Positions 26,815-31,702 of a stretch of DNA of 64,000 bases are shown piece after piece. The stretch's first letter is position 1. Each line of letters begins with the position of its first letter. The translations under genes and the position numbers were made by a program. The notes beneath the pieces were generated by a model. It was given only the letters and a program-made list of their open reading frames with translations, was not told where the DNA came from and did not search any database. The stretch is from Escherichia coli (GTDB lineage: Bacteria; Pseudomonadota; Gammaproteobacteria; Enterobacterales; Enterobacteriaceae): the NCBI RefSeq assembly GCF_046105845.1, contig NZ_CP151004.1; one strand, written 5' to 3'.

Positions 26815-26881
26815 TAGCCTGCGCAGACAAACCCGGCTTCACAGCGTAAGATAATTGTTCATTTCGCGCTGTGGAGTCGGT

Positions 26882-27457
26882 ATGACGCAACAAATCACCC
26901 TCATTAAAGACAAAATTCTCTCCGATAACTATTTCACCCTGCACAACATTACTTACGATCTCACGCGCAAAGATGGCGAAGTTATCCGCCATAAACGTGA
27001 AGTTTACGATCGCGGTAATGGTGCAACGATCCTCCTGTACAACGCGAAGAAAAAGACCGTGGTTCTGATTCGTCAGTTCCGCGTCGCTACCTGGGTTAAT
27101 GGCAATGAAAGCGGGCAGCTGATTGAAACCTGCGCCGGGCTGCTGGATAACGACGAACCGGAAGTGTGTATTCGTAAAGAAGCGATTGAAGAGACGGGTT
27201 ATGAAGTTGGCGAAGTGCGCAAATTATTTGAACTGTATATGTCGCCAGGCGGTGTGACTGAGCTAATCCACTTCTTTATCGCCGAATACAGTGACAGCCA
27301 GCGCGCTAACGCCGGTGGTGGTGTCGAAGATGAAGATATTGAAGTGCTCGAGCTGCCGTTCAACAAGGCGCTGGAGATGATCAAAACCGGTGAGATACGT
27401 GACGGTAAGACGGTGTTATTGCTTAACTATTTGCAAATGTCACATTTAATGGACTGA
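26882..27457 (+). CDS. nudK: GDP-mannose pyrophosphatase NudK (Nudix hydrolase)
   Basis: 191 aa from ATG 26882; Nudix box [22 protein letters not shown]. Confidence 0.93.
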
Positions 27458-27582
27458 AAAATAACAATAATATTTCGTTGTTTATTATTGGCTCAATCCG
27501 ATAAATCCGATTGAGCCGCGCTACCTGCGCAACGAAGATACGACTTGTGCTGTTTGTTTGAACTTCTGGGGTCGTACCGTCC

Positions 27583-28626
27583 ATGCGCTATCGCATTTTC
27601 CTTCTCTTTTTTTTCGCTTTGTTGCCGACGTCTTTGGTGTGGGCGGCACCAGCGCAACGGGCGTTTTCCGACTGGCAGGTCACCTGTAATAACCAAAACT
27701 TCTGCGTGGCGCGTAATACGGGCGATCATAACGGACTGGTGATGACCCTGAGCCGCAGCGCCGGGGCGCATACCGATGCCGTTTTACGTATTGAGCGCGG
27801 CGGGTTGAAGTCGCCGGATGCGTCTGAAGGGGAGATAGCGCCACGGCTGCTGTTAGATGGTGAGCCGTTGGCGTTAAGTGGTGACAAGTGGCGGATTTCA
27901 CCATGGTTACTAGTAACCGATGATACGGCAACCATCACCGCGTTTTTGCAGCTGATTCAGGAAGGGAAGGCGATCACCTTACGCGATGGCAATCAGACCA
28001 TTTCTCTGAATGGCTTAAAAGCGGCGTTGTTGTTTATTGATGCTCAGCAAAAGCGCGTTGGCAGTGAAACCGCGTGGATAAAGAAAGGGGACGAACCGCC
28101 GCTCAGCGTACCGCCCGCGCCTGCGCTGAAAGAGGTCGCGGTGGTTAACCCAACGCCGACGCCACTCTCACTCGAAGAACGTAACGATTTGCTGGATTAT
28201 GGAAACTGGCGGATGAATGGTCTGCGCTGCTCGCTTGATCCGTTACGTCGTGAGGTGAATGTCACTGCGCTGACCGATGATAAAGCACTGATGATGATTA
28301 GCTGTGAGGCAGGGGCCTATAACACCATTGATTTGGCCTGGATTGTGTCGCGTAAAAAGCCACTGGCCTCGCGCCCGGTTCGGTTACGTTTGCCGTTCAA
28401 CAGCGGTCAGGAGACGAATGAACTGGAACTGATGAACGCAACATTTGATGAGAAATCGCGTGAACTGGTGACCTTAGCGAAAGGGCGCGGATTAAGCGAT
28501 TGTGGCATTCAGGCGCGCTGGCGCTTTGACGGTCAGCGTTTTCGCCTGGTGCGTTACGCCGCAGAACCCACCTGCGATAACTGGCATGGGCCAGACGCCT
28601 GGCCCACGTTGTGGATCACCCGTTAA
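27583..28626 (+). CDS. ypfG: Uncharacterised DUF1176 protein YpfG (secreted)
   Basis: 347 aa; N-terminal signal peptide (MRYRIFLLFFFALLPTSLVWA); no catalytic motif recognised. Confidence 0.9.
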   Translation: MRYRIFLLFFFALLPTSLVWAAPAQRAFSDWQVTCNNQNFCVARNTGDHNGLVMTLSRSAGAHTDAVLRIERGGLKSPDASEGEIAPRLLLDGEPLALSGDKWRISPWLLVTDDTATITAFLQLIQEGKAITLRDGNQTISLNGLKAALLFIDAQQKRVGSETAWIKKGDEPPLSVPPAPALKEVAVVNPTPTPLSLEERNDLLDYGNWRMNGLRCSLDPLRREVNVTALTDDKALMMISCEAGAYNTIDLAWIVSRKKPLASRPVRLRLPFNSGQETNELELMNATFDEKSRELVTLAKGRGLSDCGIQARWRFDGQRFRLVRYAAEPTCDNWHGPDAWPTLWITR

Positions 28627-28657
28627 ACAAAATCCCAGATGCGGCCCTAAAAAGCGC

Positions 28658-28707
28658 ACGGACCGTCCCCTCGCCCCTCTGGGGAGAGGGTTAGGGTGAG
28701 GGGAACA
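28658..28707. repeat. GC-rich palindromic intergenic repeat (non-REP family; possibly the element known as Box C)
   Basis: acggaccGTCCCCTCGCCCCTCTGGGGAGAGGGTTAGGGTGAGGGGAACA; near-identical copy at 42051..42100; contains self-complementary CCCCTCTGGGGAGAGGG. Confidence 0.6.
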
Positions 28708-28728
28708 TACAGCATCCGGCGATCACCA

Positions 28729-30732
28729 TCAGGCACCTTTCACTCCCAGCACCTTATGCGCTTTTGCCACAATATTCTCGGCGGTTAAGCCAAAGAACGG
28801 GAACAGCTTATCCGCCGGAGCAGATTCCCCATAACCTGTCATCCCGACAATTGCCCCTTTCAGGCCAACATATTTGTACCAGTAATCGGCAATACCCGCT
28901 TCCACCGCCACGCGAGCCGCAACGTTAGAAGGCAACACCGACTCGCGATATTCCTCATCCTGGGCGTCGAAAATATCGGTCGAGGGCAGGGAAACTACGC
29001 GTACATTGCGACCTTCTCCCGCTAATTTCTCTGCCGCTTGCAGGGTGATTTCCATCTCTGAACCGGTGGCAATCAAAATAATATCTGGCTTACCGCCGCT
29101 GTCTTTCAGTACATAACCGCCACGAGCAATCTCTTTAACCTGATCCGGCGTACGTTCCACCTGGGCCAGATTCTGCCTGGAGAGGATCAGTGCCGTCGGT
29201 CCGTTGTGGCGCTCAACCGCCAGCTTCCAGCCCACCGCAGCTTCCACCTGATCGCACGGTCGCCAGGTGCTGAAATTTGGCGTTAAGCGCAGACTGGCCA
29301 GTTGCTCAACAGCCTGGTGCGTAGGACCATCTTCGCCCAGACCAATTGAGTCGTGGGTATAAACCATAATCTGCCGCGCTTTCATCAGTGCCGCCATCCG
29401 CGCGGCGTTACGGGCGTATTCAACAAACATCAGGAACGTCGCGGTATACGGCACAAAGCCGCCGTGGTGCGCAATGCCGTTGGCGATAGCGGTCATGCCA
29501 AATTCACGCACCCCGTAGTGAATGTAGTTGCCCGCCGGATCTTCCTTCAGCGAAACAGAACCTTTCCAGATGGTCAGGTTGCTGGGAGCCAGATCCGCCG
29601 AACCGCCGAGCAGCTCCGGTAGCATCGGCCCGTAAGCGTTAAGCGTATTTTGCGAAGCCTTACGGGTAGCGATTTTCGCCGGATTTGCCTGTAACTCATT
29701 GATATATTTCTGAGTCGTTTTCTCCCAGTCCTTCGGTAAACCACCGCTCATCCGACGGGTAAACTCTTCTGCCAGTTGCGGATGAGCCTTTTTATAGGCG
29801 GCAAACTTCTCATTCCAGCTCTGCTGCGCTTTTTCGCCTTTTTCGCGGGCATCCCAGGCGTGATAAATCTCTTTAGGGATTTCAAATGGCGGATGGTGCC
29901 AGCCCAGTTTTTGCCGTGCCAGCGCCACTTCTTCTTCCCCCAGCGGTGCGCCGTGCGCCTCTTCCTTACCTGCTTTATTCGGCGAACCAAAGCCAATTAC
30001 CGTACGGCAGATAATCAGCGACGGCTTATCTTTCACGCTTTGCGCTTCAAGGATCGCTTCCTTCACCGCCTGCGGATCGTGACCGTCGATCTCGTGGATC
30101 ACATGCCAGTGATAGGCTTCAAAACGTTTTGCCGTATCGTCGGTAAACCAGCCTTCGGTTTCACCGTCGATGGAAATACCGTTGTGATCGTAAAAACCAA
30201 TCAGTTTGCCCAGTCCCAGCGTGCCCGCCAGCGAACAGACTTCGTGGGAAATACCTTCCATCAGGCAACCGTCGCCCATAAACACATAGGTGAAGTGATC
30301 GACAATTTCATGATCCGGCTGGTTAAACTGCGCCGCCAGTGTACGCTCTGCTATCGCCAGCCCGACGGCGTTCGCCAAACCTTGTCCAAGTGGACCGGTG
30401 GTGGTTTCAACACCTGGCGTATAACCAATCTCCGGGTGACCTGGGGTTTTTGAATGCAACTGACGGAAGTTCTTCAGCTCTTCCAGCGGCAGGTCGTAAC
30501 CGGTCAGATGCAGCAAACTGTAGAGCAGCATCGACGCGTGGCCGTTGGAAAGAATAAAGCGGTCGCGATCATACCAGGTTGGGTCGGTAGGATTATGTTT
30601 AAGAAAATCGTTCCACAGCACTTCGGCAATATCAGCCATGCCCATCGGCGCGCCGGGATGACCAGAATTGGCTTTTTGTACCGCATCCATACTGAGTGCG
30701 CGAATCGCATTGGCAAGGTCTTTTCGGGACAT
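28729..30732 (-). CDS. tktB: Transketolase 2 (TktB)
   Basis: 667 aa from ATG 30732 ([27 protein letters not shown]...); thiamine-diphosphate motif GDGCLMEG. Confidence 0.96.
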
Positions 30733-30751
30733 ATAACACTCCGTGGCTGGT

Positions 30752-31702
30752 TTATAGTTTGGCGGCAAGAAGATCTTCCAGTTTGCGTTGATCAACGGCG
30801 AACAGACGAATGCCTTCAGACAGTTTTTCTACCGCCATCGCATCCTGATTGTGCTCCCAACGGAACTCCGCTTCGCTCATGGGAGCTGGGCGTGGGAACG
30901 TCTGAGAAGGTGGGATTAATTTACGTACCACTGGCGAAACTTTTTCCTGCAGCTCCTTCAGCAAATTCGGTGCGATAGTCAGTCGATCGCAGCCGGTTAA
31001 GGCGAGGATTTGTTCGGTGCGACGGAAGCTCGCGCCCATCACAATGGTTTCATAGTGGTGTTGCTTATAGTAGTCGTAGATATTGCGCACCGATTTAACG
31101 CCCGGATCTTCTTCCACCACATACGGGTCCATCGGCTTGCGTGCCTGATACCAGTCATAAATACGCCCGACAAACGGCGAAATCAGAAATACGCCTGCTT
31201 CTGCACAGGCCCGCGCCTGTGCAAAAGAAAACAGCAGCGTCAGGTTGCAGTTAATACCTTCTTTTTCCAGCTCTTCTGCCGCGCGAATTCCTTCCCAGGT
31301 TGAAGCCAGCTTGATCAGAATGCGTGATTTCTCAACGCCTTGTTGCTGATACAAGTCCACCAGATGGCGCGCCTTCTCAATGCTCTTTTCTTTATCAAAA
31401 GAGAGGCGTGCATCAACTTCTGTTGACACGCGACCGGGTACGATTTTGAGAATTTCAGCACCGAAATTGACCGCCAGTTTGTCACATGCTGCGACCACCT
31501 GTTGTTCCTGGGTTTTGCCATTTTTTCTACCCCAGGCGATAGCATCGTCTATTAAATGCTCATATTGTGATAATCCGGCAGCCTTGAGTAACAGCGAAGG
31601 ATTGGTGGTGGCATCCTGGGGATGATAATGGCGAATGGACTCAATATCGCCGCTGTCTGCCACGACAGTGGTGAACTGTTTGATGCCGTCTAACTCGTTC
31701 AT
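30752..31702 (-). CDS. talA: Transaldolase A (TalA)
   Basis: 316 aa; immediately upstream of tktB (20 bp spacer), operon arrangement. Confidence 0.95.

What the first reader, a model, noticed from the sequence alone, without database searches (positions are those of the whole stretch)
27583..28626. ypfG: secreted DUF1176 protein with no recognisable catalytic motif
A 347 aa ORF with a clear signal peptide and no motif I can assign, standing alone between nudK and the convergent tktB. It is one of the few genes in the window whose function is unknown.
Basis: partly seen in the sequence, partly recalled or inferred. Interest (0 to 1): 0.2.

Follow-up and report, generated by a model that had tools for sequence, protein, structure and literature searches.

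The report
ypfG: envelope-stress-induced periplasmic protein
This is the known E. coli gene ypfG, which encodes an exported two-domain protein of still-unknown biochemical function that published data show is strongly switched on by cell-envelope damage, so it is a real but ordinary 'orphan' gene and not a new kind of system.

Summary
Window 27583-28626 (+) is a 347-aa ORF: E. coli ypfG, a full-length DUF1176 protein. It is present in 5424 of 5426 complete E. coli genomes and lies between nudK and convergent tktB. It is under purifying selection and has a Sec-type signal peptide.

Published transcriptomes place ypfG among the strongest Rcs envelope-stress genes: about 40-fold up with a LolCDE inhibitor, 4.6-fold down in an rcsB mutant, and up with carbapenems alongside ivy.

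I found a promoter conserved across Enterobacteriaceae. An RcsB-like box (TCCGATAAATCCGA) abuts a -35-like TTGAGC, with GAAGAT 17 nt further on. The 23-nt box-to-(-10) distance equals that at rprA.

Best reading: a non-catalytic periplasmic protein deployed by Rcs after peptidoglycan or outer-membrane damage; its ligand is unknown. The gene is already known; interest is low to moderate.

The parts
27494..27515 (+). Conserved upstream operator block CAATCCGATAAATCCGATTGAG. It contains the RcsB-box-like 14-mer TCCGATAAATCCGA (27497-27510).
   Evidence: The block is nearly invariant in a 5-taxon alignment that includes a 50%-identity ortholog. It is present in 29 of 54 orthologous upstream regions, with 95% column identity against 48% in the adjacent spacer. 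It has one mismatch to the published RcsB box TN(G/A)GAN4TC(T/C)NA.
27511..27516 (+). -35-like hexamer TTGAGC, directly abutting the box.
   Evidence: Read from the sequence. It lies 17 nt upstream of GAAGAT and is part of the conserved block. Its promoter role is inferred.
27534..27539 (+). -10-like hexamer GAAGAT, which keeps A at position 2 and T at position 6. The predicted transcription start is near 27546.
   Evidence: An NAxxxT hexamer lies exactly 18 nt after the 20-mer box in 27 of 29 loci (GAAGAT in 23); the other two (L015, L016) have GAAGAT one nucleotide further (19 nt). Column identity is 94%. The distance from this hexamer to the ATG varies from 45 to 80 nt. The 23-nt distance from box to -10 equals that at rprA. 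The transcription start is not verified.
27583..28626 (+). ypfG coding sequence, 347 aa plus stop codon.
27583..27645 (+). Signal peptide, aa 1-21, with predicted signal peptidase I cleavage at VWA|AP.
   Evidence: Sequence features and the ortholog comparison; low model confidence for residues 1-20; relaxed constraint.
28078..28170 (+). Conserved proline-rich interdomain linker, about aa 166-196, with the motif RxGxxPAxxVPxAPxLP.
   Evidence: Consensus. It has the lowest pN/pS of any segment, 0.24.
28171..28623 (+). C-terminal domain, about aa 197-347. It is a helix followed by an antiparallel meander sheet, with cysteine pairs C216/C241 and C307/C331 and the signature KGRG(L/I)(G/A)DCG...W.FDG..F.
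28640..28710 (.). Dispersed intergenic repeat with an inverted repeat (28666-28676 / 28694-28704) between the convergent ypfG and tktB genes. It may act as a bidirectional terminator hairpin.
   Evidence: Inverted repeat found. Median of 6 copies per E. coli genome. Fold energy -38.3 kcal/mol with z-score -1.8, which is not exceptional. The terminator role is inferred.

Best explanation
ypfG is a stand-alone gene with its own promoter. When the Rcs envelope-stress phosphorelay is activated, RcsB most likely binds a conserved box that abuts the -35 region and activates transcription. Known triggers include mislocalised lipoproteins, beta-lactam or lysozyme damage to peptidoglycan, complement attack and conjugative contact.

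The product is exported by the Sec pathway and its 21-residue signal peptide is removed. The 36-kDa mature protein folds in the periplasm into two domains, locked by three disulfides (C35-C41, C216-C241, C307-C331).

In the periplasm it acts as a non-catalytic binding protein, not as an enzyme. My best single guess is that it binds peptidoglycan itself or a peptidoglycan-cleaving or remodelling protein. It would then shield or stabilise the cell wall during damage, in the way that the co-induced Ivy and MliC do.

Status of each step:
- Shown here: the gene, export signal features, two-domain model, conserved cysteines, the conserved promoter architecture and the stand-alone context.
- Shown by others: RcsB-dependent and stress-induced expression, and peripheral localisation in Salmonella.
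- Inferred: direct RcsB binding, the disulfide pairing, the non-enzymatic nature and the cell-wall-related ligand.

I put about 0.55 on the general statement and about 0.25 on the specific peptidoglycan or hydrolase ligand.
For: Export and fold:
- Signal peptide with a conserved WA|APAQ junction.
- AF2 model with pLDDT 93.7 and pTM 0.90, showing two domains. The C-domain modelled alone gives pLDDT 94.7.
- Six cysteines are invariant or >=90% conserved in 95 diverse homologs. No Ser, His or Glu reaches 90% conservation.
- No catalytic family matches in Pfam, NCBIfam or PDB.

Regulation, from published data:
- 37.7- and 44.2-fold induction by a LolCDE inhibitor, ranked 8th among osmB, ycfJ, bdm, wca/wza, ypeC, mliC, ivy and rcsA (PMC5105897).
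- 4.6-fold lower expression in an rcsB-disrupted O157:H7 strain, alongside ycfJ and ypeC (PMC5343319).
- Induced by carbapenems together with ivy and ymgD (bioRxiv 10.1101/2019.12.16.878389).
- Induced in serum only when complement is active (PMC4145685).
- Part of a response to RP4 conjugation shared by E. coli and Klebsiella.

Promoter, found here:
- The box has 95% column identity, the 18-nt spacer 48% and GAAGAT 94%, across 29 loci.
- The 23-nt distance from box to -10 is the same at the direct RcsB target rprA, where the RNA 5' end is annotated, and at bdm.

Localisation: tagged Salmonella YpfG is at the cell periphery and the protein is detected by proteomics (PMC12487888).

Cell-wall hints, all weak:
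- The N-domain resembles IalB. An IalB-domain protein, RgsG, is an essential periplasmic protein at the growth pole of S. meliloti (PMC7327166).
- One homolog is fused to an LprI lysozyme-inhibitor domain, at 23.3 bits against a cutoff of 22.
- ampH is the convergent neighbour in Erwiniaceae and in L008.
Against: - No ligand, partner or deletion phenotype is known. Nothing here tests binding.
- The family is large: 1518 clusters at 50% identity and at least 583 species. It extends to Xanthomonadales, Betaproteobacteria and Brucella, which to my knowledge lack Rcs. The core function is therefore not Rcs-specific.
- Conserved polar residues (N37, D153, Q156, R158, Y246, R302, D306) could form an unrecognised active site.
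- The RcsB box has one mismatch to the strict consensus. One-mismatch sites are common by chance: 22 were found against 46.6 expected in the window. The transcription start is unverified.
- Most Erwiniaceae and Yersiniaceae orthologs lack the box.
- The IalB similarity is not reproduced by Foldseek or by HMMs.
- The inhibitor-like C-domain hits score no better than beta-propeller blades.
- ampH is convergent with ypfG, not co-transcribed.
- There is no hypervariable domain that would suggest an arms race with foreign enzymes.
Confidence: 0.55

Rival explanations
1. YpfG is a dedicated proteinaceous inhibitor of foreign peptidoglycan-degrading enzymes, such as lysozymes or type VI/IV secretion amidases and muramidases. 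That would make it a further inhibitor family alongside Ivy, MliC/PliC, PliI and PliG, induced by Rcs when the outer membrane is breached.
For: - It is co-induced with ivy and mliC.
- It is induced in serum only when complement is active, a condition under which lysozyme reaches the wall.
- One family member is fused to a Pfam LprI lysozyme-inhibitor domain.
- It stands alone in the genome, as Ivy and MliC do.
Against: - No HMM match to Ivy, MliC/PliC or LprI in the E. coli protein or in the 95 aligned homologs.
- The structural scores are at noise level, equal to those of propeller blades.
- The LprI fusion is a single protein just above the cutoff.
- Both domains are evenly constrained, with no fast-evolving interface.
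- There is never an adjacent effector gene.
Confidence: 0.15
2. YpfG is a periplasmic enzyme of an unrecognised class that acts on an envelope substrate, for example peptidoglycan, lipoprotein or LPS repair.
For: - Several polar residues are >=90% conserved: N37, D153, Q156, R158, Y246, R302 and D306.
- The most conserved segments (aa 31-45, 151-180, 241-255) could line a cleft between the domains.
- Peptidoglycan enzymes (AmpH, and a beta-lactamase-family gene in Salmonella that may be PBP4B) lie nearby in some genomes.
Against: - No conserved Ser, His, Glu or Cys nucleophile; all conserved cysteines come in three pairs that look like disulfides.
Confidence: 0.12
3. YpfG is an iron-related, Fur-regulated periplasmic protein. 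This was suggested by a predicted Fur box in a serum study, and YpfG appears among siderophore-linked proteins in a STRING interaction network shown for Klebsiella pneumoniae SbmA.
For: A Fur box was predicted upstream of ypfG in ExPEC (PMC4145685). YpfG is listed among siderophore-linked proteins in the STRING network of Klebsiella SbmA. The region 27458-27491 upstream of the box is AT-rich.
Against: - No match to the 19-bp Fur consensus with up to 3 mismatches anywhere in the window.
- The AT-rich stretch is not conserved across genera, whereas the RcsB-like box is.
- Induction in serum required active complement, not iron limitation.
- No metal-binding motif is conserved.
Confidence: 0.04
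4. YpfG is an outer-membrane beta-barrel or otherwise membrane-integral protein. The LolCDE study annotated it as a 'possible beta-barrel', and the Salmonella study reported a 'cell membrane' location.
For: The comment in Table 1 of PMC5105897, and the peripheral fluorescence of tagged YpfG in Salmonella.
Against: - The high-confidence model shows two globular alpha/beta domains with four helices, not a closed transmembrane barrel.
- Three conserved disulfide-type cysteine pairs are present.
- The C-terminus is ...LWITR, without the terminal aromatic residue typical of barrel assembly signals.
- There is no hydrophobic segment after the signal peptide.
- Peripheral fluorescence is equally expected for a periplasmic protein.
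Confidence: 0.03

Closest known systems
IalB / IalB-domain proteins (Pfam PF06776; Bartonella IalB, PDB 3dtd; S. meliloti RgsG)
   Different: - There is no sequence-level relationship: profile and consensus searches miss IalB, and only 1 of 95 members touches the IalB HMM, at E=0.02.
- Foldseek does not recover it.
- IalB proteins have a single domain, whereas YpfG adds a conserved proline-rich linker and a second, unrelated domain.
Rcs-induced periplasmic lysozyme inhibitors Ivy, MliC/PliC and PliI
   Different: No HMM or convincing fold relationship exists. YpfG is two to three times larger and has two domains. Inhibitory activity has not been tested.
Periplasmic immunity and inhibitor proteins Tni2 (6b12_C) and XAC2610 (4qtq)
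   Different: The scores are no better than those of generic beta-propeller blades. To my knowledge such immunity genes sit next to their effector genes; ypfG never sits next to an effector gene.
rprA and bdm promoters (RcsB-activated promoters with the box just upstream of the -35)
   Same: The RcsB-type 14-mer ends 23 nt before the -10 hexamer, as at ypfG. The right half-site and its flank are nearly identical: AATCTGATCGA in rprA against AATCTGATTGA in Salmonella ypfG.
   Different: The ypfG box has C instead of G/A at position 3, so it reads as a TCCGA direct repeat. It is embedded in a longer palindrome, CAATCCGAT-AA-ATCCGATTG. RcsB binding has not been shown.

Membership tests
DUF1176 (Pfam PF06674) | Full-length match to the family HMM above the gathering score | tested here: met
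   354.8 bits against a cutoff of 34.8; residues 25-347 cover profile positions 1-322 of 322.
DUF1176 (Pfam PF06674) | Family signature residues: six conserved cysteines and the KGRGxxDCG...W.FDG..F motif | tested here: met
   C35 and C41 are invariant. C216, C241, C307 and C331 are >=90% conserved in 95 homologs. The motif in E. coli is KGRGLSDCG.
E. coli ypfG ortholog | Near-identity to annotated ypfG and conserved nudK-ypfG-tktB synteny | tested here: met
   98-99% DNA identity to annotated ypfG loci in 5424 of 5426 genomes. Synteny with nudK holds in Salmonella, Enterobacter, Citrobacter and a 50%-identity ortholog.
Sec-exported soluble periplasmic protein | N-terminal signal peptide with a signal peptidase I site, no lipobox and no further transmembrane segment | tested here: met
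   MRYR + hydrophobic core (Kyte-Doolittle 2.5) + VWA|AP; the junction is conserved and the core is variable in orthologs. No cysteine lies near the cleavage site. SignalP was not available. Peripheral localisation is published for Salmonella.
IalB family (Pfam PF06776) | Match to the IalB HMM at or above the gathering score | tested here: not met
   No IalB hit for the E. coli protein, for N-domain consensus or member sequences at E<=10, or for the family profile against PDB 3dtd. Only 1 of 95 members hits, at E=0.02.
IalB family (Pfam PF06776) | Shared three-dimensional fold with a solved IalB structure (3dtd) | tested here: inconclusive
Rcs regulon | Expression depends on RcsB and rises under Rcs-activating stress | not testable with these tools
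   Published data only: 4.6-fold lower in an rcsB-disrupted strain; 38- to 44-fold higher with a LolCDE inhibitor; induced by carbapenems together with ivy.
Rcs regulon | RcsB box TN(G/A)GAN4TC(T/C)NA in the promoter | tested here: inconclusive
   The strict motif is absent from the window. TCCGATAAATCCGA has one mismatch, and such sites are common by chance. However, the site is 95% conserved across 29 loci, lies at a fixed distance from a conserved -10, and has the same 23-nt geometry as rprA and bdm.
Known lysozyme-inhibitor families (Ivy, MliC/PliC, LprI) | HMM match to the inhibitor family | tested here: not met
   None of these families is hit by the E. coli protein at E<=1 or listed among the families hit by the 95 aligned homologs. 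Only the separate fusion protein P0227 carries an LprI domain, in its C-terminal extension.
Fur regulon | Fur box upstream of the gene | tested here: not met
   No match to GATAATGATAATCATTATC with up to 3 mismatches. The AT-rich upstream stretch is not conserved across genera.
Outer-membrane beta-barrel protein | Closed transmembrane barrel and a C-terminal aromatic assembly signal | tested here: not met
   The model has two globular alpha/beta domains with helices. The C-terminus is ...LWITR.
Anti-phage defence systems (PADLOC) | Match to any defence-protein model | tested here: not met
   No families at E<=0.1.

The most novel reading that the evidence does not exclude
DUF1176 could be a new, widespread family of non-catalytic periplasmic guard proteins for the cell wall. 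It would combine an IalB-like module with an orphan beta-meander domain, and would bind and neutralise peptidoglycan-cleaving proteins, foreign or endogenous. In Enterobacteriaceae it would have been placed under direct RcsB control. That would make it a fifth kind of proteinaceous peptidoglycan-hydrolase inhibitor, and would give a first biochemical handle on the IalB fold.
Probability: 0.15. Interest if true: 0.6.

Novelty: already known. Interest (0 to 1): 0.25.

Why it matters
ypfG is a core E. coli gene and one of the most strongly Rcs-induced genes, yet it has no known function. Its family is large, with about 1500 clusters at 50% identity across Alpha-, Beta- and Gammaproteobacteria, and it has no solved structure.

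If the protein does protect the wall during attack by beta-lactams, complement or lysozyme, it would matter for antibiotic tolerance and serum resistance. It would also help explain what IalB-type proteins do.

The compact conserved promoter (box, then -35, then -10, within about 46 bp) is a directly testable RcsB target and a possible minimal Rcs reporter.

As it stands, this is an ordinary orphan gene with a sharper set of hypotheses, not a discovery.

Tried and rejected
1. Sequence routes to a function gave nothing: NCBIfam, PADLOC, PDB by single sequence and by family profile, Pfam at relaxed thresholds on all 95 homologs, and Pfam on domain consensus sequences.

2. Foldseek against PDB gave no significant hit. 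The AlphaFold-database libraries were not available.

3. I considered a 5'-UTR hairpin that pairs the second conserved block with the start-codon region (inverted repeat I1). I rejected it because the distance from that block to the ATG varies from 45 to 80 nt, while its distance to the box is fixed.

4. I considered the palindrome at 27490-27517 as a nudK terminator. I rejected it because the outer stem bases are not conserved as pairs while the core sequence is, and no T-run follows.

5. The Fur box is not supported.

6. I looked for a conserved operon partner in 89 loci. None exists. Only lineage-specific neighbours were found, such as ampH and unknown secreted proteins.

7. The metagenomic contexts of distant homologs were mostly too short to use.

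8. The first locus scan with the full alignment failed for lack of a conserved seed. It worked with the sub-alignment that shares the KGRGxxDCG motif.

9. I could not obtain IalB sequences, so I could not run a profile-profile test of N-domain homology.

10. ycfJ and osmB have RcsB boxes at other distances from the gene, and ypeC has no box with up to one mismatch. The 23-nt geometry is therefore shared with rprA and bdm but not with all Rcs targets.
Full report
**1. Observation**

The window contains an ORF from ATG 27583 to the stop codon ending at 28626, on the + strand, encoding 347 aa, exactly as reported. It is a full-length member of Pfam DUF1176 (E=7e-106). Megablast of 27300-28900 finds the locus in 5424 of 5426 complete E. 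coli genomes at 95-99% identity. It is annotated there as ypfG, between nudK (same strand) and tkt/tktB (convergent).

The nudK-to-ypfG arrangement also holds in Salmonella, Enterobacter, Citrobacter and a 50%-identity ortholog. It holds across most Enterobacteriaceae and many Erwiniaceae genomes.

The gene is under purifying selection. dN/dS is 0.07-0.13 against three genera, although dS is saturated.

The N-terminus has the anatomy of a Sec signal peptide: MRYR, a 15-residue hydrophobic core, then VWA|AP. In orthologs the core varies while the WA|APAQ junction is fixed. The signal peptide evolves about twice as fast as the mature protein. There is no lipobox.

**2. What the databases and structure searches say**

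No database assigns a function:
- NCBIfam has no model and PADLOC has none.
- PDB has no sequence relative by phmmer or by a 95-sequence family profile.
- Scanning all 95 diverse homologs against Pfam at E<=1 gives only scattered single hits. One of these is to IalB, at E=0.02.
- Consensus sequences of each domain hit nothing but DUF1176.

The family itself is large. There are 1518 clusters at 50% identity with E<=1e-3. At least 583 species-representative genomes carry a relative, including Xanthomonadales and Chitinimonas. A Brucella member is reported in the literature.

**3. Anatomy of the protein**

An AlphaFold2 model built on 95 homologs is confident, with pLDDT 93.7 and pTM 0.90. It has three parts:
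- a beta-rich N-domain with two helices (about aa 22-165);
- a conserved proline-rich linker (about aa 166-196);
- a C-domain made of one long helix followed by an antiparallel meander sheet (about aa 197-347). Modelled alone, this domain gives pLDDT 94.7.

Across the family, C35, C41, G308 and F320 are invariant. The following are >=90% conserved: N37, L142, G144, A147, D153, Q156, R158, A164, G169, P177, P183, C216, L230, C241, A245, Y246, R302, G303, D306, C307, W313, G317 and C331.

The six cysteines form three sequence-local pairs, which suggests three disulfides in an exported protein. This pairing is an inference.

No Ser, His or Glu is conserved, and no known catalytic motif is present. 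Conserved Asp, Arg, Tyr and Gln residues remain that could form either a binding site or an unrecognised active site.

The most conserved stretches among enterobacterial orthologs are aa 31-45, 151-180 and 241-255. Both domains are equally constrained, at pN/pS of about 0.30.

**4. Fold comparison**

Foldseek against PDB finds nothing at E<=1e-3 and does not list IalB in its top 50. The AlphaFold-database libraries were unavailable.

I therefore treat 'IalB-like N-domain' as a fold-level resemblance supported by one method, not as established homology. IalB itself has no known mechanism. An IalB-domain protein of S. meliloti, RgsG, is an essential periplasmic protein at the growing pole (PMC7327166).

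**5. Regulation: literature**

The gene is not a blank in expression studies.
- It is induced 37.7- and 44.2-fold by a LolCDE inhibitor. That makes it the 8th most induced gene, listed among the Rcs-regulated genes osmB, ycfJ, bdm, wca/wza, ypeC, yjbEFGH, mliC, ivy, ymgD/G and rcsA (PMC5105897).
- It is 4.6-fold lower (p=9e-9) in an O157:H7 derivative with a disrupted rcsB, together with ycfJ (25-fold lower) and ypeC (24-fold lower) (PMC5343319).
- A DUF1176 gene is overexpressed under all carbapenem conditions tested, together with ivy and ymgD (bioRxiv 10.1101/2019.12.16.878389).
- It is induced in serum only when complement is active (PMC4145685).
- It belongs to the small response to RP4 conjugation that is shared by E. 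coli and Klebsiella recipients.
- In Salmonella the protein is detected by proteomics, rises five-fold after ethanolamine induction, and a tagged version is at the cell periphery and not in the cytoplasm (PMC12487888).

**6. Regulation: what the sequence shows**

The 125-bp nudK-ypfG spacer contains a near-palindrome, GGCTCAATCCGAT-AA-ATCCGATTGAGCC (27490-27517).

Aligning five taxa shows a 22-nt block, CAATCCGAyAAATCyGATTGAG, that is almost invariant in an otherwise diverged spacer. A second conserved block, GAAGATAC, lies downstream.

With 54 orthologous upstream regions, 29 carry the box. These cover the sampled Enterobacteriaceae genera, apart from two Buttiauxella loci that lack the box, plus one Erwinia.
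- Box columns are 95% identical.
- The next 18 nt are only 48% identical, but this spacer is exactly 18 nt long in 27 of 29 loci.
- The following hexamer is GAAGAT in 23 of 29 loci, with 94% column identity.
- The distance from that hexamer to the ATG varies from 45 to 80 nt.

This is the signature of a promoter: an operator, a -35-like TTGAGC, 17 nt, then a -10-like GAAGAT. It is not the signature of an RNA structure.

The core 14-mer, TCCGATAAATCCGA, differs at one position from the RcsB box TN(G/A)GAN4TC(T/C)NA defined structurally and by EMSA (PMC7913699). The strict motif is absent from the window. One-mismatch sites are common by chance, with 22 found against 46.6 expected. The motif match alone therefore proves nothing.

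What gives it weight is conservation plus geometry. At the direct RcsB target rprA in K-12, the perfect box TGAGACGAATCTGA ends 23 nt before the -10 hexamer TACTAT, which is correctly placed for the annotated RprA 5' end. The ypfG 14-mer also ends 23 nt before GAAGAT. bdm shows the same 23 nt.

ycfJ and osmB have boxes at other distances, and ypeC has none with up to one mismatch. The geometry is therefore shared with some Rcs targets but not all.

Most Erwiniaceae and Yersiniaceae orthologs lack the box and have a different upstream region.

Direct RcsB binding and the transcription start (predicted near 27546) remain inferences. The Fur box predicted by others is not supported.

**7. Genomic context and fusions**

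No partner gene is conserved.
- Enterobacteriaceae have nudK, then ypfG, then convergent tktB and talA.
- Erwiniaceae and one distant metagenomic locus have a convergent ampH directly downstream (AmpH equivalog, E about 1e-194).
- Salmonella has a beta-lactamase-family gene (PF00144; possibly PBP4B, not checked) upstream of nudK.
- Yersiniaceae and Kosakonia have lineage-specific secreted proteins with no Pfam match next to ypfG.
- Distant loci have unrelated neighbours.

Rare architectures are:
- an N-terminal DUF2127 membrane domain;
- a tandem DUF1176;
- one protein with a C-terminal LprI lysozyme-inhibitor domain, just above the cutoff.

These are weak pointers towards the cell wall and nothing more.

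**8. Mechanism**

The best-supported account is this. ypfG is a monocistronic gene activated by RcsB when the envelope is damaged. Its product is exported, disulfide-stabilised and periplasmic. It works by binding something and not by catalysis.

I place about 0.55 on that general statement. I place about 0.25 on the specific idea that the ligand is peptidoglycan or a peptidoglycan-cleaving or remodelling protein.

The rivals are:
- a dedicated inhibitor of foreign hydrolases (0.15);
- an unrecognised enzyme (0.12);
- an iron/Fur-related role (0.04);
- an outer-membrane barrel (0.03).

The family's spread beyond Enterobacterales, into groups that to my knowledge lack Rcs, means that Rcs control is a lineage-specific overlay on an older and more general periplasmic function.

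**9. Novelty and verdict**

This analysis adds:
- a confident two-domain model;
- the tentative IalB-like assignment of the N-domain and the orphan status of the C-domain;
- three conserved cysteine pairs;
- the collation of expression evidence for Rcs control;
- a conserved RcsB-type promoter architecture with testable coordinates.

None of this is surprising to a specialist. It turns 'unknown' into a short list of experiments. Interest is 0.25, and the novelty class is 'already known'.

Noticed in passing
window 28627-28728: The spacer between the convergent ypfG and tktB genes holds a dispersed repeat with an 11-nt inverted repeat (28666-28676 / 28694-28704). It occurs about 6 times per E. 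coli genome. Only 830 of 5426 genomes carry this full spacer. It folds to -38.3 kcal/mol with z-score -1.8, which is not exceptional. A sub-threshold Rfam hit to Antizyme_FSE is noise.
   Followed up: partly
window 27672-27689: TGGCAGGTCACCTGTAAT corresponds to an intragenic sigma-54 binding site reported inside Salmonella ypfG (TGGCAGGTCACCTGCAAT; PMC3844500). It overlaps the codons for the conserved DWQVTCNN motif. E. coli has TGT where Salmonella has the TGC of the -12 element.
   Followed up: no
L040-L064 (Erwiniaceae) and L008, directly downstream of the DUF1176 gene: A convergent ampH gene (peptidoglycan DD-carboxypeptidase/endopeptidase) abuts the ypfG ortholog in Erwiniaceae and in a 34%-identity metagenomic homolog. 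Salmonella has a beta-lactamase-family gene (PF00144; possibly PBP4B, not checked) just upstream of nudK.
   Followed up: partly
L065-L074, L078 and L080 (Yersiniaceae), upstream and divergent; L018, L021 and L023, downstream: Two lineage-specific secreted proteins with no Pfam or NCBIfam match lie next to ypfG orthologs. One is about 392-415 aa and contains a DCGGAHP motif. The other is about 312 aa and has a cysteine-rich middle region.
   Followed up: partly
P0227, P0220, P0222 (homologs): Rare DUF1176 architectures: a C-terminal extension with a weak LprI lysozyme-inhibitor domain (23.3 bits against a cutoff of 22), an N-terminal DUF2127 membrane domain, and a tandem duplication of DUF1176.
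   Followed up: partly
window 27458-27491: An AT-rich stretch just upstream of the conserved box contains a sigma-70-like match, ATAACA-16-TATTAT, and a small inverted repeat (CAATAATA/TATTATTG). It is conserved only among the closest genera. If it is active, the box would lie downstream of that start site, in a repressor-like position.
   Followed up: partly
L001 4173-4403 (Salmonella): Salmonella carries an extra small ORF of 76 aa between ypfG and tktB; by its position next to ypfG (STM2476) it is probably STM2475. This ORF is absent from the E. coli window. A paper reports that STM2475 has a strain-specific promoter change and, in strain D23580, a transcription start inside ypfG.
   Followed up: no
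L092 (K-12 ycfJ upstream) and L094 (K-12 osmB upstream): ycfJ has a perfect RcsB-consensus box, TCAGACTCCTCCGA, 121 nt before its ATG. osmB has TAAGATGATTCCTG at -219, almost identical to the bdm box and its flank. ypeC has no box with up to one mismatch in its 114-nt spacer.
   Followed up: partly
window 26855-27457 and 28729-30795: The mechanical ORF calls for nudK and tktB start at upstream TTG codons (200 and 688 aa). The likely true starts are the internal ATGs, giving [11 protein letters not shown]... (NudK, 191 aa) and [11 protein letters not shown]... (TktB, 667 aa).
   Followed up: no
L052 and L059: Two different contigs of one Pantoea metagenome-assembled genome each carry a DUF1176 gene in a different upstream context. 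This suggests either paralogs in some Erwiniaceae or a mixed-strain assembly.
   Followed up: no
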